Origin: Escherichia phage vB_EfeM_pEP20
Direction: 5' to 3' (one strand)
Sequence record: OQ743992
DNA length: 64,000 bases
Part shown: piece by piece, positions 8,184 to 55,007 of the stretch
Numbering within the stretch: the stretch's first letter is position 1
Layout: the number at the start of each line of letters is the position of its first letter
Translations under genes and position numbers: made by a program
The notes under the pieces: generated by a model
What the model was told of the DNA's origin: nothing
What the model saw: only the letters and a program-made list of their open reading frames with translations
The model's database searches: none

Positions 8184-10137
8184 TTAATACAGGTGGAATC
8201 GTTGAGCTTTGACGCTGCTCTTCAGTATAAACTTCACCAGTCTCACGGTCAAACACTTCATCCTCGTAATGAGGTAAGGAGTCATCATAATGGTCTTCAG
8301 CTTCACCAATACCAAACTGTTGACGAATATTCTCTGCTGCACCATCAATGTCAACACCACACCCAGAAGCTTTGATAAGACGTCCTGTGTCTGGATTGTA
8401 CCAAGTATGACCAGCGATACCTGTTGACTTACCATGACGACGACACTTAGTTAACTTGATTTTTGTCAAGTTTTTCTTAACAGGGTCTGGGTCAACCTTG
8501 TTACGCATTAACAGAATGTTGTTCATGGAAATCTGGAAGTATGCACCAGAACCCTTAATGTCCTCTTCAGAGATATCTCCACCTTCAGAGTTAGCTTTCT
8601 GACCACCTGCACTCTTACGAACGTGACAGACGTTAACCTGTGCATACTGATAGCGTTTGCAACGACGCAGTAGTTCAGACAAAACTTCCTCTTCATCAGT
8701 ATCAGAACGTGACAGAGCCAACGTAATAGGGTCAAGAATAATAATCTTACAGTCTAAACTGTTAACAAGATAGTCAACAAATTCCAGCAGGTTATCTTGG
8801 TCAATTGCCCCTTGATGGTCAACGATATGGATACGACGGCCTTTAGATAGTTCTGCGTGTGCTTCCTTCAATTCATCCCAATCACGTTCGTCATAAGGAA
8901 TCTCAGAAATCTGCTTGCTTAGGTGAATTGCACAGAGCATCTCCATCAACTCTTCATAGGTGTCTTCTACAGGAATTACACCGATATTGTAATCAGTTTC
9001 TTTCCAAGCTGAATAAATCATCTCACGAGTGTAAGCTGACTTACCTACTGAAGATGGTGCTGCAATAGTTGTAATCTCACCTAAACCATAACCACCATAA
9101 GTCAGCCTGTTCAAATCCCCGAAAGATTCTGGGAAAGGAATCAATGGAATCTGACCACGATTCTTCATTGCCTCAAAACCATCTGCAAAGTTCTTGATAC
9201 CAGCAGGACAGTAACGAGGTGCATTGTAGATACGCTGCTTAAATCCTTCCAGAACTGTGTCTTTCTCTTTATAGAACTTTGTCCACCATTCATTAAGGTC
9301 TTTTACACCTTCTGGATACTGGAACAAACGAACCTTCTCAATAGGTAAGATGCCAGCAGCCTCTTTTGTTGCTTTAGCACCTGCTTCATCGTTATCAAAG
9401 CACAAGTAAATCTCATCAAATGATGTGATGTACTGATAGTTGTCTTTGATAGACTTAATGTTTGCACCTGATGGAACAGATACGTGACAGTAATTCTTAC
9501 GACGAGACTTATCTTTAATTGCCAGAGAAGTCATGTAGATAGCTGTCGCACATTCCATCTCACCTTCCCAGATGAATAGTCGGTTCCCACCTTCTGGAGC
9601 AATCCATGAACCGAACATTGCCAGTTCACCTTTAATATCTCCAACACCACCTGAAAAGTCTTTTAACTTACCACGTAGGTGTTCTTTTGGATGGTCTTCT
9701 GGGTAACGGTGACGAACACGGTAACCAACATGTTCTAGCTTGCCATCTTCATTACGTTTGTAAGTCGGATAGAAATGTGCATCAATTTCACCGTCACTAT
9801 CAATGTCAACCTTAATACCTAAACGCTCAAGGACTTTTGCAGGAATCTTCCTGTCTTTCAAATCCATTGCTTCTAGGTTTTCTTTTACATCATCTAAATC
9901 CATTCCACGGAAAGTACGGTTTTTATTATCTGAACCAGTAGAATAAGTGCTCACGATTTGTCCTTTATCAAAATCCCACTCTGGGAAACCTTTGTTACAG
10001 CTAAAGCAAGTCATCGAATAAGAACCATCGTCATGATGGTAGATTGAACCCGCATCTGATGAACCACAACGTGGACATGCACAATGACCAATAAACTGAC
10101 CAGCCTCTTTCAATTTACGACCTTTAGACATTAGCAC
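8146..10137 (-). CDS. DNA primase-helicase (zinc ribbon + primase + DnaB-like helicase)
   Basis: 663 aa; N-terminal CPRCGSSD...CFSCNKG zinc ribbon, central primase-like region, C-terminal P-loop (APSSVGKSAYT) in a DnaB/gp4-like helicase region. Confidence 0.8.
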   Translation of the reverse strand: MLMSKGRKLKEAGQFIGHCACPRCGSSDAGSIYHHDDGSYSMTCFSCNKGFPEWDFDKGQIVSTYSTGSDNKNRTFRGMDLDDVKENLEAMDLKDRKIPAKVLERLGIKVDIDSDGEIDAHFYPTYKRNEDGKLEHVGYRVRHRYPEDHPKEHLRGKLKDFSGGVGDIKGELAMFGSWIAPEGGNRLFIWEGEMECATAIYMTSLAIKDKSRRKNYCHVSVPSGANIKSIKDNYQYITSFDEIYLCFDNDEAGAKATKEAAGILPIEKVRLFQYPEGVKDLNEWWTKFYKEKDTVLEGFKQRIYNAPRYCPAGIKNFADGFEAMKNRGQIPLIPFPESFGDLNRLTYGGYGLGEITTIAAPSSVGKSAYTREMIYSAWKETDYNIGVIPVEDTYEELMEMLCAIHLSKQISEIPYDERDWDELKEAHAELSKGRRIHIVDHQGAIDQDNLLEFVDYLVNSLDCKIIILDPITLALSRSDTDEEEVLSELLRRCKRYQYAQVNVCHVRKSAGGQKANSEGGDISEEDIKGSGAYFQISMNNILLMRNKVDPDPVKKNLTKIKLTKCRRHGKSTGIAGHTWYNPDTGRLIKASGCGVDIDGAAENIRQQFGIGEAEDHYDDSLPHYEDEVFDRETGEVYTEEQRQSSTIPPVLSEDADDCPFETE

Positions 10138-49440: not shown

Positions 49441-49998
49441 TTACTTTCTTAGTGGATGAATAAAGAATGCCAACATAACTCTTTCCCTTGAGAATGCTCT
49501 TTCTTCTGGGACAACACTTTTTAGTTTCCATCCAATATAAATTCTCCAGTAAAACTGTTTACCAAAGACTTTAATTGATGGGATAAAAGCGAATAATCCC
49601 CAAGCATTACTGTTCCACATTAGGAGATAACCAGTCTGATTATCTTCAGGGTCAGAACTTACGTTGATATTACCTTTCCACTTAGTAACATCTTTTACAT
49701 CTCTTCCTAATACATGGTAAGAGAAGTTATAAGCTTTGTTTCTCCAGAGCCATCCAACTCTCTGCATATAAACACCAAGCTTACCAATCTTTCTAATCTT
49801 AGCCCATCTCTCAACGTGGCCTTTGTCACCATCAATCGGGTTGTCATAGGTCTCCATCCATCTGAATCCAAAAGGTAGATGCCCTTTCTTCTCGCTGTAG
49901 AATGGAACCACAAATGGTGCTAAGATTACTGCTAAGATTGCTGCAAATGGTTCTAGCAAAGCTAGGAAAATCCATGAAGCATATTTTAAATATCTCAT
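49441..49998 (-). CDS. hypothetical membrane protein (185 aa) inside tRNA array
   Basis: N-terminal hydrophobic helices (IFLALLEPFAAILAVILAPFVVPF). Confidence 0.45.
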   Translation of the reverse strand: MRYLKYASWIFLALLEPFAAILAVILAPFVVPFYSEKKGHLPFGFRWMETYDNPIDGDKGHVERWAKIRKIGKLGVYMQRVGWLWRNKAYNFSYHVLGRDVKDVTKWKGNINVSSDPEDNQTGYLLMWNSNAWGLFAFIPSIKVFGKQFYWRIYIGWKLKSVVPEERAFSRERVMLAFFIHPLRK

Positions 49999-50480: not shown

Positions 50481-50577
50481 CTAAGCGAGTGTGAAAAGAG
50501 GTCTGAAGTTGTGCCGCTAACTCAACTCCGTGGAATTTGTTACGGTCTTCAGTTGACTCAAAGCGGTCTTTCACTTG

Positions 50578-50984: not shown

Positions 50985-51249
50985 CTATAGGTGCATTAAA
51001 TCTTTTTAGAGAACTTCTAAGAACCTAAGCAACAAGGTTCCACAACAAGCTGTAATAACCTTAGAAGCCCTCTAAAAAGACCTAAATAGGTCTTTGCATA
51101 GTCTTGTTTAATCCGGTGACTAGAACCTTTGGAGAGCTTGATATTATCTCTTCTCCGTGACACCTACTAGGTGCTTTATCAGTGTGTACGACAATACACG
51201 AGGGATAAACCGAAAATGCGAGCAAGCATGGACGGTATAAATCTTATTA

Positions 51250-51339: not shown

Positions 51340-51352
51340 CCTAATAAGACTT

Positions 51353-51435
51353 TGGCATGGGACGGAGGAGTTGAACCACTTTGAAACGGTTTTGGAGGCC
51401 GTTGCTCATGCCTTAGAGTCTTAACATCGTCCCAT
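51353..51435 (-). tRNA. tRNA-like gene with Trp-type anticodon loop (CCA) and expanded 5' D region (atypical)
   Basis: Perfect 7-bp acceptor ATGGGAC/GTCCCAT with discriminator G and CCA; loop CTCCAAA on stem ACGG/CCGT; about 8 extra nt before the D-arm and a weak T-stem. Confidence 0.4.
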
Positions 51436-51587
51436 ACTTTAATTCGAAGCTTACCGTATTTTCGCAACACTGTAAAGCCCCTTCTCAGATTATTTACATG
51501 TTCTGGAAAACATGAGATACAGACCACCTCCTTACACGGAGACCCGATAAGGTCGTCTAAGCAATCTGCTAACTATTTGGCACACCC

Positions 51588-51664
51588 TACAGGATTCGAA
51601 CCTGTAACTAACGATTTAGAAGACCGTTGCTCTATCCAATTGAACTAAGGGTGCATTAATCTTT
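51588..51664 (-). tRNA. tRNA-Arg (anticodon TCT)
   Basis: Acceptor GCACCCT/AGGGTGT, D-stem GTTC/GAGC, anticodon arm ACGGT-CTTCTAA-ATCGT, T-arm ACAGG-TTCGAAT-CCTGT. Confidence 0.7.
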
Positions 51665-51991
51665 AAAGACTCTCTTAGAAAGCCCTTAAAGATGCCCACC
51701 TTATTAATCATACCGTGGGCTAGTACGCCAAATTCTTTGATGAGGGATTGGAAGACCTCACTGGTGTTTAGCCTATCAAGCTACTGCCAGAAAAACATTG
51801 TCGTTTGCATTTATTTTAAATTTGCAAAATAGACGCTACGCAACGAAAACTATTCAGAATATGTACAACAAATTTCCCCACATTGTGTTACGTCTAACGC
51901 TCATGTATTGGTGTTTGAATTATACATATTATGAATCATTTTTAGTTACTATAAAGCGGTCACATCTCAATGTCAACAACTTTATTGAAAT

Positions 51992-52149: not shown

Positions 52150-52225
52150 TGGTAGAAGTAGAGGGATTCGAACCCATCGCCTGTCAGATTAAAAGTCTGC
52201 CGCATCACCATTCTGCTACACTTCC
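52150..52225 (-). tRNA. tRNA-Lys (anticodon TTT)
   Basis: Acceptor GGAAGTG/TACTTCT (two G-U pairs), anticodon loop CTTTTAA, T-loop TTCGAAT with a weak stem. Confidence 0.55.
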
Positions 52226-52229
52226 ATTA

Positions 52230-52373
52230 AATTATCTTTGTAGATAAGCTACCCAGACTTGCTTAAGGTCTGTAGCGATGTGCCTTTTTGGGTTTAAATC
52301 TAGAATTTACCCTTTCACCCTTTGTGGTCGCATACTCACAGGTAAGCTTAATAACTTATCTACAAAGATAATT
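52230..52373. repeat. 19-bp perfect inverted repeat (AATTATCTTTGTAGATAAG) enclosing about 106 bp
   Basis: Arms at 52230-52248 and 52355-52373 are exact reverse complements; the enclosed sequence holds hairpin CCCAGAC-TTGCTTAAG-GTCTG. Confidence 0.6.
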
Positions 52374-52374
52374 A

Positions 52375-52506
52375 CCAGACCGTTGTTTATCATCTTAAGT
52401 GCTACCATTACACCAACTCGACATCTGCCGAGTGAAGGAATCGAACCTTCGCCTTTTCTTTACCGGAGAAATAGATTGTTTAAAGTTTGCTGTAAACGGT
52501 CTTCTG
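52375..52506 (-). ncRNA. candidate Y-RNA-like ncRNA U1 with embedded tRNA-like module (YrlA-like architecture)
   Basis: Minus-sense 5' CAGAAGACCGUUUACAGCAAAC ... ACGGUCUGG 3' with termini pairing (AGACCGU/ACGGUCU); interior has hairpin UUUCU-CCGGUAA-AGAAA, T-arm GAAGG-UUCGAUU-CCUUC, closed acceptor-like hairpin ACUCGGC-AGAU-GUCGAGU, D-arm GUG-UAAUGGUAG-CAC. Confidence 0.5.
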
Positions 52507-52519
52507 TAAATTTGTTGAG

Positions 52520-52604
52520 CCAGACCAAGTTTTAAATTTTTCAAAATTAAATTGGCTTGAAATTTTAAGTAACTTGCTGAATTTGGTCTTCTGCTCCTTT
52601 AAAG
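52520..52604 (-). ncRNA. candidate Y-RNA-like ncRNA U2
   Basis: Minus-sense 5' CAGAAGACCAAAUUCAGCAAG ... UUGGUCUGG 3'; terminal stem AGACCAA/UUGGUCU covaries with U1/U3. Confidence 0.45.
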
Positions 52605-52690
52605 AATACTCGTAAGAACTCTTTAAGGGAGGGGCTAAATAGCCCTCTCAAACATCATTTTGAAATACTTATTATAATTTGGCGGTTACG

Positions 52691-52768
52691 AAGGGATTCG
52701 AACCCTCATCATCTCCCGTGACAGGGGAGTATTTTAACCAGATTAAACTACATAACCTTCATTTGGTG
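52691..52768 (-). tRNA. tRNA-Asp (anticodon GTC)
   Basis: Acceptor GGTTATG/CGTAACC, perfect anticodon arm CTCCC-CTGTCAC-GGGAG, T-loop TTCGAAT. Confidence 0.7.
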
Positions 52769-52774
52769 TGCCGT

Positions 52775-52862
52775 GTAGGAGTCGAACCTACCGAGTCTTA
52801 ATGACAAGGGATTTACAGTCCCCACCGCTACCATCTACGGGATAACGACACATTTAAATTTG
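52775..52862 (-). tRNA. tRNA-Tyr (anticodon GTA), class II
   Basis: Acceptor GTGTCGT/ACGGCAC, anticodon loop CTGTAAA, long variable arm, T-arm GTAGG-TTCGACT-CCTAC. Confidence 0.65.
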
Positions 52863-52871
52863 GCGGTTAGT

Positions 52872-52948
52872 CAGGGATTCGAACCCTGTGCCATTCGCTT
52901 AACAGGCGACCGCACATACCTTATGTGCTTCCTAACCTTAATACATTG
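52872..52948 (-). tRNA. tRNA-Asn (anticodon GTT)
   Basis: D-stem GCAC/GTGC, anticodon loop CTGTTAA, T-arm CAGGG-TTCGAAT-CCCTG; last acceptor pair mismatched. Confidence 0.65.
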
Positions 52949-52959
52949 CCAGACCGTGT

Positions 52960-53020
52960 TTTTTCTTTTATCCACAAAAAAGTAGTTTGTTGCTGAATAC
53001 GGTCTTCTGCAAAATTGGAG
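52960..53020 (-). ncRNA. candidate Y-RNA-like ncRNA U3
   Basis: Minus-sense 5' CAGAAGACCGUAUUCAGCAAC ... CACGGUCUGG 3'; internal hairpin CUUUUUU-GUGGAU-AAAAGA. Confidence 0.45.
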
Positions 53021-53026
53021 GCGGGT

Positions 53027-53103
53027 GCAGGAGTCGAACCTGCCGATACCATGCTAATGAGACATGTGAGACGCCCTTTCTCTATACCCGCAATTCTTAA
53101 TGA
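53027..53103 (-). tRNA. tRNA with anticodon CAT (second Met, or Ile2 if lysidine-modified)
   Basis: Anticodon arm CATGT-CTCATTA-GCATG, T-arm GCAGG-TTCGACT-CCTGC; first acceptor pair mismatched. Confidence 0.6.
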
Positions 53104-53114
53104 CCAGACCAAAT

Positions 53115-53187
53115 CTCTTCTTTGTCCGATTTCGTGTCAGATGAATAAGCTTAAGTTTGCTGTAATTGGTCTTCTGTCAAAACTGGC
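53115..53187 (-). ncRNA. candidate Y-RNA-like ncRNA U4
   Basis: Minus-sense 5' CAGAAGACCAAUUACAGCAAAC ... UUGGUCUGG 3'; same conserved 5' core and covarying terminal stem as U2. Confidence 0.45.
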
Positions 53188-53194
53188 GTTCCAG

Positions 53195-53272
53195 AAGGGA
53201 TTTGAACCCTCAAATATCCACTTTGAAAGAGTGGTGACTTTACCATTTTGTCTACTGGAACATTAATTTGGT
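53195..53272 (-). tRNA. tRNA-Glu (anticodon TTC)
   Basis: Perfect acceptor GTTCCAG/CTGGAAC, perfect anticodon arm CCACT-CTTTCAA-AGTGG, T-loop TTCAAAT. Confidence 0.7.
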
Positions 53273-53279
53273 CTCTGTT

Positions 53280-53356
53280 GGAGGACTTGAACCTCCGGCC
53301 TTACCGCCCCAAACGGAACGCTCTACCAAGCTGAGCTAAACAGAGATAAACTTTTC
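53280..53356 (-). tRNA. tRNA-Pro (anticodon TGG)
   Basis: Perfect acceptor CTCTGTT/AACAGAG, D-stem GCTC/GAGC, anticodon loop TTTGGGG, T-arm GGAGG-TTCAAGT-CCTCC. Confidence 0.7.
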
Positions 53357-53475
53357 AAACTCTATGTAACCACTTTAACATTATTTTTTAGTGGTTGTCA
53401 AGAACTTTTTTTAAAATATTTTTCAGTATCTTAGAAAAGCTCTCATTTCGTTTCTATGTAGAACATATTAAAGGG

Positions 53476-53501
53476 TATTAAACACATTGTCAATACCCTT
53501 T
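53476..53501 (-). terminator. hairpin downstream of the Ro60-like gene (terminator or promoter-overlapping operator)
   Basis: Minus-sense GGGTATT-GACAATGTGTTT-AATACCC followed by TTTAATAT; the same stretch contains TTGACA, so it may be a promoter for the tRNA array instead. Confidence 0.35.
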
Positions 53502-53511
53502 TTAAAACTTT

Positions 53512-54927
53512 TTACCAGATGTAACGGTCAATCATTACTGCTTTGAGCATTACGCTGATTGGGTCAAACTTCTCACCACCGAGCAGAGCTTTTAAAGTGG
53601 CTGGAGAGAACCCTGATACCATTGCTACACCGTTATCCTTAACAGACACTTCGCAAGTACCATTACGGTTTGCTAAGTACCAGAATACCAGTTGTGGCAT
53701 TTCGTATCCAGCTTTTTTGTACTTACTACGAATTGCTTCAAAGTTTGTACGACCATTTGCACCATCAACCTGATTGAACTCCATATCAGAGAAGATGATA
53801 AGCTTACTTGGCATATCTTTCTGAGTCAAGTTGTTTCTCTTACCTGTCTCAAGAATACGGTCAAAAGCTGCTTGTAAGTTAGTTGAGCCATATTCAACAT
53901 GACGCATCACCTGACGATGACGGTTTTTCAAATCACCACTCAGTTCGATGAAATGAGGGTTTGTTGAATAAACCATTAACTCATTCTTAAAGCAACCCGT
54001 ATTGCGTTCTGCTACATACAAGGCAAGGGATACACCAATATCAAGGGCAGTGATTGAACCAAGATTCACCCAAGACATTGAGCTTGAAACATCAGTCATA
54101 CACAGGATGTTCTCACCTTCTGCCATCCAGTTTGGTAGTGCTTTCCACTGCTCATTAGCCACATCTGCATTACCATACTTAATAGATTTAATCACATCGT
54201 ATGGGTAAACAGCACCAGCGTTAATCTTAACCTCACCCTTTGAGAGTGACTCGATGTAAGCTTTGTAACGTTCCCCATCTTTACGGTTAAAGAGTTTTTG
54301 GTAACGTGCAGTAGCGAGTGAAGGAATCTTGCTGTAGTCAATCTTACCAAACTCATTAGCAGAGATTTTTTGCTCAACCGTATCAGACAGTGCAGATAAC
54401 AGTGTGCGATACTCCTTCTCACTTAAGTTTGCAAACTTACAGAAACGTTTTACAAACTGTTTGTGGCGTGGTTTTACTCGTGGTAACCACTTAGCCGCTA
54501 AACCTGCTGTTGCAGGGTCTAGTAATGCTGCTTCTAAATGTTTGAAGGCATCTGTCTCAAAACGAGTGCCTACGAAGATTTTGAAGTCATCAAAACGACC
54601 AAGTTCTGCAATCTTATCCATAATGCGAAGAACCTGTGTAGGTTCTAAAACTTTATCTTCAATCGCTTGAAGTAAAACAGTTCGGAAAGCTTTACGCTCA
54701 CCCATACCTTCTCGTACATCTCGCATATGCAGTAAAATACGAACTGCAACATCAACATCCTCACGCAAAGCTTTGTAGAACAGGTCTGGTAAGATTTCTA
54801 CATTGCTACGGCTTGAGCCAGCGGCTTTGTAAAAGTCTACCAGAGCAGACATTGATGAAGTATGGTTTACAGCACCATTTTCAGTTCGACCTGCATGAAG
54901 GTGCGCATGTTTAAATAACTCGCTCAT
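53512..54927 (-). CDS. Ro60-like protein (TROVE-like helical N-terminal region + von Willebrand A domain with MIDAS motif)
   Basis: 471 aa; helical N-terminal 260 aa, then DVSSSM MIDAS motif and a C-terminal region that aligns from memory with the Ro60 vWA domain (DVSASM...LGSI, GSTN vs GGTD, IFSDME vs VFTDNE). Confidence 0.5.
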   Translation of the reverse strand: MSELFKHAHLHAGRTENGAVNHTSSMSALVDFYKAAGSSRSNVEILPDLFYKALREDVDVAVRILLHMRDVREGMGERKAFRTVLLQAIEDKVLEPTQVLRIMDKIAELGRFDDFKIFVGTRFETDAFKHLEAALLDPATAGLAAKWLPRVKPRHKQFVKRFCKFANLSEKEYRTLLSALSDTVEQKISANEFGKIDYSKIPSLATARYQKLFNRKDGERYKAYIESLSKGEVKINAGAVYPYDVIKSIKYGNADVANEQWKALPNWMAEGENILCMTDVSSSMSWVNLGSITALDIGVSLALYVAERNTGCFKNELMVYSTNPHFIELSGDLKNRHRQVMRHVEYGSTNLQAAFDRILETGKRNNLTQKDMPSKLIIFSDMEFNQVDGANGRTNFEAIRSKYKKAGYEMPQLVFWYLANRNGTCEVSVKDNGVAMVSGFSPATLKALLGGEKFDPISVMLKAVMIDRYIW

Positions 54928-55007
54928 ATTTTACTCTCTTCTCTCATTGTTGTTTGATGTGACAGACTTTAGAGCAACTTTGTAGAGTCTGTCAACACCT
55001 TTTAAAA

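What the first reader, a model, noticed from the sequence alone, without database searches (positions are those of the whole stretch)
52375..53187. Family of four conserved structured elements (U1-U4) interleaved with tRNA genes: candidate phage Y-RNA-like ncRNAs
Four copies (52375-52506, 52520-52604, 52960-53020, 53115-53187) share, on the minus sense, an invariant 5' core CAGAAGACC and a 3' end GGUCUGG. The bases next to the core change in a compensatory way (GU...AC in U1/U3, AA...UU in U2/U4), so a 7-8 bp terminal stem closing each element is preserved by covariation. That points to a selected RNA structure rather than a DNA site. Each sits between tRNA genes on the tRNA-coding strand, just downstream of a Ro60-like gene. 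A conserved terminal helix formed by the RNA ends is how Ro60 binds Y RNAs, and bacterial Y RNAs are typically encoded next to the Ro ortholog. A looser fifth relative lies at 50481-50577.
Basis: partly seen in the sequence, partly recalled or inferred. Interest (0 to 1): 0.85.

Follow-up and report, generated by a model that had tools for sequence, protein, structure and literature searches.

The report
Phage Y-like RNAs beside Ro60-like gene
Four small structured RNAs tucked between the tRNA genes of this Felix O1-type phage belong to a previously undescribed RNA family that sits next to a Ro60-like ring-protein gene in very different phages. They are probably that protein's RNA partners, and one of them is a circularly permuted tRNA.

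Summary
The four elements are real. Corrected minus-strand spans are U1 52373-52508, U2 52518-52595, U3 52947-53011 and U4 53102-53178.

Each has an outer 3-bp helix that covaries between copies, an AGA/G internal loop, a 7-bp helix, and the single-stranded motif WUWCAGCAA.

The main new result is comparative. The same module sits beside DUF2828 genes, on the gene strand, in phages of Klebsiella, Campylobacter, Mycobacterium, Listeria, Staphylococcus and Enterococcus and in many metagenomic contigs. It is a 7-bp stem of any sequence whose outer base lies exactly 10 nt 5' of CAGCAA, with a G after the 3' strand. I counted 56 hits near 73 genes, against about 1-2 in controls. A profile trained only on those distant phages ranks U1-U4 as the top four hits in this window.

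U1's interior is a circularly permuted tRNA, with the architecture of bacterial YrlA.

Neither Rfam 15 nor the searchable literature describes this family. One preprint only guessed that Y RNAs hide among these tRNA genes.

Protein-RNA binding is inferred, not shown.

The parts
53512..54927 (-). Gene for a 471-aa Ro60-like protein: an alpha-helical repeat ring plus a vWA domain with an invariant DxSxS motif. It appears to be the orthologue of Bas63 gp130.
53372..53493 (-). Two sigma-70-like promoters (TTGACA-17/18-TAATAT and TAAAGT) upstream of tRNA-Pro. They are the likely start of the tRNA/Y-like RNA transcription unit.
   Evidence: These are consensus matches only. No terminator-like site was found on the minus strand between 53345 and 52226.
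53102..53178 (-). U4, a 77-nt Y-like RNA between tRNA-Glu and tRNA-Met. Outer helix GAC/GUC, internal loop AGA/G, helix AGACCAA/UUGGUCU, motif UUACAGCAA.
   Evidence: Family profile score 29.4 bits.
52947..53011 (-). U3, a 65-nt Y-like RNA between tRNA-Met and tRNA-Asn. Outer helix UGC/GCA, helix AGACCGU/ACGGUCU, motif AUUCAGCAA.
   Evidence: Family profile score 33.3 bits. It is the top hit of covariance model R1 in the window, at 21.5 bits.
52518..52595 (-). U2, a 78-nt Y-like RNA downstream of tRNA-Asp. Outer helix AGC/GCU, helix AGACCAA/UUGGUCU, motif AUUCAGCAA.
   Evidence: Family profile score 26.0 bits.
52373..52508 (-). U1, a 136-nt Y-like RNA with the YrlA-type architecture. Outer helix UAC/GUA, helix AGACCGU(U)/(A)ACGGUCU, and the CAGCAA motif at 52487-52492.
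   Evidence: Family profile score 41.5 bits. The alignment of orthologues is 96.8% paired, against 44-53% when the partners are slid.
52398..52471 (-). Circularly permuted tRNA domain inside U1. Anticodon-like arm 52455-52471, T arm 52434-52450, 7-bp acceptor-like hairpin 52416-52433, D arm 52398-52414. The break lies at tRNA position 26|27.
   Evidence: The Rfam tRNA model matches the 3' two-thirds at 24.7 bits. After re-permutation, ARAGORN calls it tRNA-Thr(GGU); it finds nothing in the native order. The acceptor-like hairpin shows three compensatory double changes across genera.

Best explanation
U1-U4 are small non-coding RNAs that work like Y RNAs for the phage's own Ro60-like protein.

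Proposed steps:
1. They are co-transcribed with the tRNA genes from the promoters at about 53400-53490.
2. They are released when RNase P and the tRNA 3'-end enzymes cut out the neighbouring tRNAs. This step is inferred.
3. Their 5' and 3' ends pair into a terminal helix.
4. The ring protein encoded just upstream recognises a fixed module in that helix. The module consists of:
   - the base of a 7-bp stem (A-U, G-C, R-Y), with an unpaired G just 3' of it;
   - the single-stranded UUACAGCAA, which starts exactly 10 nt from the outer base of the stem.
   This step is inferred from conserved synteny and conserved geometry.
5. The variable interior is the effector part. In U1 it is a permuted tRNA body that could recruit or decoy tRNA-binding enzymes, as proposed for bacterial YrlA.
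6. The RNP probably acts in RNA surveillance or counter-defence during infection.
For: The module is strongly associated with DUF2828 genes outside this phage group.
- In 73 DUF2828 loci outside the Ounavirinae (the subfamily holding Felixounavirus, Suspvirus and Mooglevirus), 532 kb in all, it occurs 56 times. All 56 are on the gene strand, within 700 nt upstream or 1000 nt downstream of the gene, and they fall in 39 loci.
- Block shuffles give a mean of 1.0 such hits (maximum 3). The opposite strand gives 10 hits over the whole 532 kb.
- 25 permuted hexamers give a mean of 1.8 hits (maximum 6).
- Named examples are Klebsiella FBKp34, Campylobacter F368, Mycobacterium Snenia, Listeria LMSP-25, Staphylococcus 6ec and Enterococcus EF1.

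Features the search did not demand are also conserved.
- G follows the 3' strand in 85 of 89 instances.
- Pair 1 is A-U in 73 of 89, and pair 2 is G-C in 80 of 89.
- Position 9 is U in 81 of 89.
- Pairs 4-7 use all four Watson-Crick types.

Blind test: a profile built only from phages outside the Ounavirinae ranks U1-U4 first to fourth in this window.

The protein has the Ro60 fold.

U1 is a permuted tRNA with a covarying acceptor hairpin. This matches the YrlA layout of 5' motif, V, T, acceptor stem and D (PMC4201824).

The module also occurs where there are no tRNA genes, so it is tied to the protein gene rather than to tRNA processing.

Published precedents:
- The Ro60 of phage phiLo binds two adjacent Y-like RNAs (PMC12135203).
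- Bas63 gp130, from the same phage genus, is Ro60-like and counters the Ppl defence system. Its authors suspected that Y RNAs lie in the tRNA cluster.
Against: - There is no expression, end-mapping or binding data.
- The canonical Ro-binding motifs (GGUCCGA, GNCGAAN0-1G) are absent, and no Rfam Y RNA family matches at E<=10.
- The predicted folds are not unusually stable, with z-scores of -0.55 to -2.1.
- Covariance model R1 separates the elements poorly from plain hairpins: U3 has E 0.056, U4 has E about 1, and U2 was not listed.
- gp130 alone, expressed from a plasmid or moved into T7, rescues phage from Ppl. That activity therefore does not need these RNAs.
- Only 39 of the 73 distant loci have a strict hit.
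Confidence: 0.7

Rival explanations
1. The module is a real RNA element linked to the DUF2828 protein, but it is a substrate or a cis-regulatory site rather than a stable partner. Examples would be an autoregulatory operator copied into decoy RNAs, or a tag that directs RNAs to, or shields them from, a nuclease.
For: In the KVP40-like Vibrio phages the module-like sequence AGACAUU-UUA-CAGCAA lies in the gene's own 5' UTR. A possible partner strand overlaps the start codon. In Campylobacter, Listeria and Enterococcus phages the modules lie directly upstream of the gene.
Against: In this window and in contig L030 the modules lie downstream of the gene, separated from it by promoters and tRNA genes. 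There are four copies with closed terminal helices. That arrangement fits free RNAs better than an mRNA operator.
Confidence: 0.12
2. U1 is a split or permuted tRNA gene. RNase P and CCA addition would open the acceptor loop, giving a two-piece tRNA held together by the terminal helix. U2-U4 would be relics of that processing signal.
For: Re-permuted U1 is a complete cloverleaf with a 7-bp acceptor stem and discriminator A. M. smegmatis YrlA, which also has a 7-bp stem, is cut by RNase P and receives CCA in vivo (PMC4201824). Related phages carry normal-order tRNA-like genes, with CCA, that have the module inserted after the D arm.
Against: The anticodon is not conserved between orthologues (GGU, GGU, UAU), and position 33 is C in this phage. 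Most family members have no tRNA body at all.
Confidence: 0.06
3. The elements are spacer signals for tRNA precursor processing, or decayed tRNA pseudogenes, with no function of their own.
For: They sit in tRNA spacers. Some GenBank records annotate U1 as 'tRNA pseudogene' or 'tRNA-OTHER'.
Against: The same module occurs next to DUF2828 genes in many loci without any tRNA gene. The motif and its geometry are conserved across phages of four or more bacterial phyla. U1's helices covary.
Confidence: 0.04
4. The elements are DNA-level sites such as promoters, terminators, packaging signals or homing-endonuclease targets.
For: The stem is an inverted repeat, and the region does contain promoters that carry inverted repeats.
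Against: The CAGCAA motif and the 3' G show strict strand bias. G-U wobbles are tolerated. The arms lie 40-110 nt apart and are not followed by a T run.
Confidence: 0.02

Closest known systems
Bacterial YrlA/YrlB Y RNAs with Rsr (Ro60) in Salmonella, M. smegmatis and many other bacteria (Chen et al. 2014, PMC4201824)
   Same: Several small RNAs are encoded next to the Ro60-type gene on the same strand. The 5' and 3' ends form the protein-binding stem. One RNA carries V, T, closed acceptor-stem and D arms in the same order as U1. The RNAs are processed from a common precursor.
   Different: The protein here is not detected by the TROVE Pfam model. The conserved RNA motif is CAGCAA at a fixed 10-nt spacing, not GNCGAAN0-1G. 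The RNAs are interleaved with tRNA genes. U1 also keeps a full anticodon-like arm, so it is a complete permuted tRNA.
Thermus phage phiLo Ro60 with Yrl1/Yrl2 (PMC12135203; PDB 9KOP, 9L5Y)
   Different: The phiLo protein is a TROVE-domain protein, and its RNAs carry the CGAA motif and lie upstream of the gene. Binding was shown experimentally there; it has not been shown here.
Bas63 gp130 (Felixounavirus), a counter of the Ppl defence system (bioRxiv 10.1101/2024.10.10.617714)
   Different: That study only speculated that some annotated tRNA genes might be Y RNAs. The candidates found here are the spacers between the tRNA genes, not the tRNAs themselves. gp130 worked against Ppl without them.
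Metazoan Y RNAs with Ro60
   Same: [quoted passage not shown]
   Different: There is no sequence similarity to the GGUCCGA/bulged-C helix, no match to the Rfam Y_RNA family, and a different mode of biogenesis.
Phage T4 species 1 and species 2 stable RNAs in the tRNA gene cluster (from my own knowledge, not checked here)
   Same: Small stable RNAs of unknown function that are encoded among phage tRNA genes and released by tRNA-processing enzymes.
   Different: No link to a Ro60-like protein is known. I did not test for sequence similarity.
Circularly permuted tRNA genes of the red alga Cyanidioschyzon merolae (from my own knowledge)
   Same: The 3' half of the tRNA is encoded before the 5' half, with the acceptor ends joined by a short linker.
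   Different: Those genes mature by circularisation at a bulge-helix-bulge motif and yield functional tRNAs. Here the anticodon is not conserved, no such machinery is known in the host, and the break at 26|27 carries a protein-binding module.

Membership tests
Y RNA / YrlA-type Ro60-associated RNA | Encoded close to, and on the same strand as, a Ro60-type protein gene | tested here: met
   U4 starts 334 nt downstream of the gene's stop codon, on the same strand. The same adjacency holds in 39 of 73 distant loci.
Y RNA / YrlA-type Ro60-associated RNA | The 5' and 3' ends pair into a terminal helix that carries conserved nucleotides and an unpaired residue | tested here: met
   There is a 3-bp outer helix, an AGA/G internal loop and a 7-bp helix. 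The A-U, G-C and R-Y base of the stem and the 3' G are conserved. Covariation is shown.
Y RNA / YrlA-type Ro60-associated RNA | Canonical Ro-binding sequence: GGUCCGA with a bulged C in animals, GNCGAAN0-1G in bacteria | tested here: not met
   No CGAA motif is present. The family-wide motif is UUACAGCAA.
Y RNA / YrlA-type Ro60-associated RNA | Match to a curated Y RNA covariance model | tested here: not met
   The Rfam 15 scan at E<=10 returns only a weak tRNA hit inside U1. Distant loci return only tRNAs at the gathering threshold.
Y RNA / YrlA-type Ro60-associated RNA | At least one RNA per locus with a tRNA-like domain (T arm, closed acceptor stem, D arm) | tested here: met
   U1 has this domain. 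The same is seen in Klebsiella FBKp34 (L004 6688-6812) and in Snenia (L008 5524-5651).
Y RNA / YrlA-type Ro60-associated RNA | Physical binding to the Ro60-type protein | not testable with these tools
   This needs RIP, CLIP or EMSA.
Ro60 / TROVE protein family (the 53512-54927 product) | TROVE domain detected by sequence profile | tested here: not met
   Pfam finds DUF2828 and DUF7788 only. Sequence and profile searches of the PDB return no Ro60.
Ro60 / TROVE protein family (the 53512-54927 product) | Ring of alpha-helical repeats closed by a C-terminal vWA domain | tested here: met
Ro60 / TROVE protein family (the 53512-54927 product) | MIDAS motif (DxSxS) in the vWA domain | tested here: met
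   D279, S281 and S283 are invariant in 38 homologues.
tRNA (U1 interior) | Cloverleaf in the normal 5'-to-3' order, with a conserved anticodon | tested here: not met
   ARAGORN finds nothing in the native order and finds a tRNA only after re-permutation. The anticodon differs between orthologues.

The most novel reading that the evidence does not exclude
The stem-plus-CAGCAA module may be a portable handle for a phage Ro60-like protein, one that phages graft onto tRNA bodies. In U1 and its counterparts the tRNA is circularly permuted, so that the handle forms the RNA ends. In Klebsiella and Aeromonas phages the handle is instead inserted after the D arm of an otherwise normal, CCA-ended tRNA-like gene. 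The resulting RNP would present a tRNA mimic to the host. U1 might first be opened by RNase P and given a CCA end, producing a two-piece tRNA. The mimic could decoy or recruit tRNA-targeting defence nucleases or RNA-repair enzymes. That would amount to a widespread, previously unrecognised class of phage counter-defence RNPs.
Probability: 0.2. Interest if true: 0.9.

Novelty: new variant of a known kind. Interest (0 to 1): 0.75.

Why it matters
- The DUF2828 Ro60-like protein is common in phages. It was found in 709 of 50,697 GenBank phage records, and more than 2,300 homologues were scored.
- In one Felixounavirus this protein is an experimentally shown counter of a bacterial defence system. 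No RNA partner was known for it.
- This analysis names the candidate partners, with exact coordinates and a simple consensus. Binding, processing and knockout experiments can therefore be designed directly.
- It extends the Ro60/Y RNA partnership to a second, sequence-divergent protein branch that uses a different RNA recognition motif.
- It adds a clear case of a circularly permuted tRNA used as an RNA module in a bacterial virus.
- It also explains 'tRNA pseudogene' annotations in hundreds of phage genomes, and it could seed a new Rfam family.

Tried and rejected
- **Rfam scans.** I scanned the window at the gathering threshold and at E<=10, and six distant loci at the gathering threshold. 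Only tRNAs and noise came back.
- **PDB sequence and profile searches with the protein.** Nothing relevant came back. Only the fold comparison worked.
- **NCBIfam.** No family matched.
- **A first, permissive stem-plus-motif scan.** It was too noisy to use. Fixing the 10-nt geometry removed the noise.
- **Covariance model R1, built from trimmed distant instances.** It has low information content and is penalised by the long variable interiors. It ranked U3 first and U4 fourth in the window, but it also picked up plain hairpins. I replaced it with a PWM-plus-pair profile that carries no length penalty.
- **Minimum-free-energy z-scores.** They are unremarkable for U1, U2 and U4, so thermodynamic stability is not the evidence here.
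Rejected as a family member.
- **An extra descriptor hit at 49905-49953 (minus strand).** It lies inside a 185-aa ORF and lacks the conserved 3' G, so I treat it as chance.
- **Aeromonas phiAS5.** No module lies next to the gene. Variants occur only inside tRNA-like genes about 2.3-2.7 kb downstream.
- **Literature searches** for DUF2828, Ro-like, and YrlA with phage. No description of this RNA family turned up.

Full report
**Source of the window.** The window comes from a Felixounavirus, a Felix O1-like myovirus. The region 52200-53600 is 96-99% identical to many E. coli and Salmonella phages of that genus. It holds 26 tRNA genes on the minus strand.

**Checking the observation.**
- CAGAAGACC occurs exactly four times between 52498 and 53176 on the minus strand. 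GGTCTGG occurs four times between 52375 and 53110 on the minus strand.
- Each pair brackets one element.
The 5' end of U2, and both ends of U3 and U4, are 11 nt too high.
- With the outer helix included, the elements are U1 52373-52508, U2 52518-52595, U3 52947-53011 and U4 53102-53178.
- The stated compensatory dinucleotides are present: GU/AC in U1 and U3, AA/UU in U2 and U4. They complete a 7-bp helix.

- An outer 3-bp helix that differs and covaries between the four copies: UAC/GUA, AGC/GCU, UGC/GCA and GAC/GUC. An AGA/G internal loop separates it from the main helix. It appears in every minimum-free-energy fold.
- A shared single-stranded WUWCAGCAA directly after the 5' strand.
- The interior of U1 is tRNA-like.

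The 'fifth relative' at 50481-50577 is a different hairpin and is not a member of the family.

**The neighbouring protein.**
- The 471-aa product of 53512-54927 is DUF2828 plus DUF7788 in Pfam and PHROG 850 'RNA-binding protein'.
- Sequence searches of the PDB find nothing relevant.
- An AlphaFold model built on 38 homologues has pLDDT 89.8 and pTM 0.89.
- Its 12 best Foldseek hits in the PDB are all Ro60/TROVE structures aligned over the full length.
- The DxSxS MIDAS motif is invariant.
- 'Ro60-like' is therefore correct at the level of fold, although the TROVE sequence profile does not detect the protein.

**Comparative evidence within the subfamily.**
- The four elements are kept in Suspvirus and Mooglevirus relatives.
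- Single-sided changes there produce G-U wobbles, for example AGGCCAA, AGACUGU and AGACCGA against unchanged 3' strands.
- That is what an RNA helix on this strand predicts.

**Comparative evidence across distant phages.** tblastn finds the protein in 709 phage records from many host phyla. Reading the non-coding DNA beside the gene in distant phages showed the same module with unrelated stem sequences:
- Klebsiella phage FBKp34: GAAGAU, AGAAGAA and AGAAGCU stems, each followed by UUACAGCAAAU.
- Campylobacter F368: two copies directly upstream of the gene.
- Mycobacterium Snenia: three copies downstream.
- Listeria LMSP-25: three copies upstream.
- Staphylococcus 6ec: three copies downstream.
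- Enterococcus EF1: one copy upstream.

**Geometry of the module.** The outer paired base lies exactly 10 nt 5' of CAGCAA in every case.

**Statistics for the association.** I scanned with a descriptor that fixes this geometry. It requires at least 7 contiguous pairs, at most one G-U, and an interior of 15-150 nt.
- In 73 loci outside the Ounavirinae (532 kb), it gives 56 hits on the gene strand within 700 nt upstream or 1000 nt downstream of the gene, in 39 loci.
- Block shuffles give a mean of 1.0 (maximum 3). The opposite strand gives 10 hits over all 532 kb.
- With 25 permuted hexamers in place of CAGCAA, the same scan gives a mean of 1.8 hits and a maximum of 6.

**Conserved features the scan did not require** (89 non-redundant instances):
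- G immediately after the 3' strand in 85 of 89.
- A-U at pair 1 in 73, G-C at pair 2 in 80, and R-Y at pair 3.
- U at position 9 in 81.
- An A-rich run before the 3' strand.
- Pairs 4-7 use all four Watson-Crick types. Pairing itself was a selection criterion, so the shuffle and permuted-motif controls are the unbiased statistics, not the percentage paired.

**Link to tRNA genes.** Many of these loci have no tRNA gene. In contig L030 the modules are again interleaved with tRNA genes, as they are here. The module therefore follows the protein gene, not tRNA processing.

**Blind test of membership.** A position-weight and pair profile trained only on the 53 instances from outside the Ounavirinae was run over both strands of the window.
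- The top four hits are U1 (41.5 bits), U3 (33.3), U4 (29.4) and U2 (26.0).
- The next hit scores 19.4 bits. The maximum in 20 shuffled windows ranged from 12.9 to 21.7 bits.
- An Infernal model built from the same alignment is weaker, because the long variable interiors are penalised. It ranks U3 first (21.5 bits, E 0.056) and U4 fourth, but it also reports plain hairpins.

**U1 in detail.**
- The Rfam tRNA model aligns an anticodon-like arm, variable loop, T arm and 3' acceptor strand at 24.7 bits.
- Directly after the discriminator A come a 3-nt linker, the 5' acceptor strand and a D arm with A14, G18, G19 and A21.
- When the two halves are swapped back into the normal order, ARAGORN calls a 74-nt tRNA-Thr(GGU). 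In the native order it finds nothing.
- Across 11 Ounavirinae orthologues the proposed structure is 96.8% paired, against 44-53% for slid controls.
- The acceptor-like hairpin shows three pairs with compensatory double changes: ACUCGGC/GUCGAGU, ACACG/CGUGU and ACCCUUC/GAAGGGU.
- The T and D arms are invariant.
- The anticodon is not conserved (GGU, GGU, UAU), so decoding is not under selection.
- The order 5' motif, V, T, closed acceptor stem, D, 3' strand is the one described for bacterial YrlA (PMC4201824).
- Counterparts with T arm, 7-bp acceptor hairpin and D arm occur in FBKp34 and Snenia. T-loop motifs occur in several metagenomic instances.

**Mechanism.**
- Shown: the module, its geometry and its strand-specific association with the Ro60-fold gene; the permuted tRNA in U1; and promoter-like sites upstream of tRNA-Pro, with no terminator-like site before tRNA-Lys.
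- Inferred: co-transcription with the tRNAs; release of the elements by RNase P and the tRNA 3'-end enzymes; binding of the module by the ring protein; and use of the variable interiors as effector or decoy parts.
- Precedents: Rsr with YrlA/YrlB (PMC4201824), and the phiLo Ro60 with Yrl1/Yrl2 and PNPase (PMC12135203).
- In Bas63, a phage of the same genus, the Ro60-like gp130 lies directly upstream of the tRNA genes and counters the Ppl defence. The authors only guessed that some annotated tRNA genes might be Y RNAs.
- gp130 alone also protected T7, so that particular activity does not need these RNAs. This is the main functional caveat.

**Comparison with known families.**
- The system works like Ro60 with Y RNAs, and U1 is built like YrlA.
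- It fails two membership tests for canonical Y RNAs. The conserved Ro-binding sequence is absent, and no curated model matches.
- The protein fails the TROVE sequence test.
- I therefore file it as a new variant of a known kind: a second branch of the Ro60 fold with its own RNA recognition motif.
- I found no description of this RNA family in Rfam 15 or in the searchable literature.

**Verdict.** The finding is real and its interpretation is supported. It generalises to a widespread phage RNA family. Confidence in the RNP model is about 0.7, pending binding and expression data.

Noticed in passing
window 52226-52372 (minus strand): A 147-nt long-hairpin RNA lies between U1 and tRNA-Lys(UUU). 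Its MFE is -48 kcal/mol with z -7.2. It is conserved across Ounavirinae, with compensatory changes in its roughly 24-bp terminal stem. It contains an inner hairpin, CAGAC-CUUAAGCAA-GUCUG followed by G (CAAACC-CUUUAGCAA-GGUUUG in CHB7), that looks like a collapsed version of the module. Function unknown.
   Followed up: partly
window 54966-54995, 53465-53501, 53372-53401 (minus strand): Each of the three sigma-70-like promoters sits inside its own inverted repeat, which spans the -35 to -10 region. One example is AAAGGGTATTGACA...AATACCCTTT. The repeat sequence differs at each promoter.
   Followed up: no
L004 7003-7116 (Klebsiella phage FBKp34) and L006 about 8750-9140 (Aeromonas phage phiAS5): These are normal-order tRNA-like genes with an encoded CCA. 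After the D arm they carry a 26-43-nt insert made of a hairpin plus UUACAGCA, UUACGGCAA or UCCGCAA. That is the module in circularly permuted order relative to U1.
   Followed up: partly
L005 4964-5010 (Vibrio phage ValKK3; same sequence in L028): A module-like AGACAUU-UUA-CAGCAA lies in the 5' UTR of the DUF2828 gene itself. A possible partner strand, AAUGUC, overlaps the start codon. This suggests translational autoregulation.
   Followed up: no
L009 (Listeria phage LMSP-25) 1960-3040 and 6808-8019: About 1 kb of non-coding, visibly structured sequence surrounds a tRNA upstream of the DUF2828 gene. An RtcB 'tRNA-splicing ligase' gene lies 1.3 kb downstream. This echoes the bacterial rsr-yrlBA-rtcBA operon.
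   Followed up: no
window 50995-51249, 51340-51577, 51655-51991 (minus strand): These are further long non-tRNA spacers inside the tRNA cluster. They give weak, sub-threshold tmRNA-like Rfam hits (15-25 bits). Their nature is unresolved.
   Followed up: no
L029 1091-2880 (metagenomic viral contig): Five modules in a row lie upstream of the DUF2828 gene. Four contain a T-loop motif, and ARAGORN finds no tRNA. This is probably an array of permuted tRNA-like Y RNAs.
   Followed up: partly
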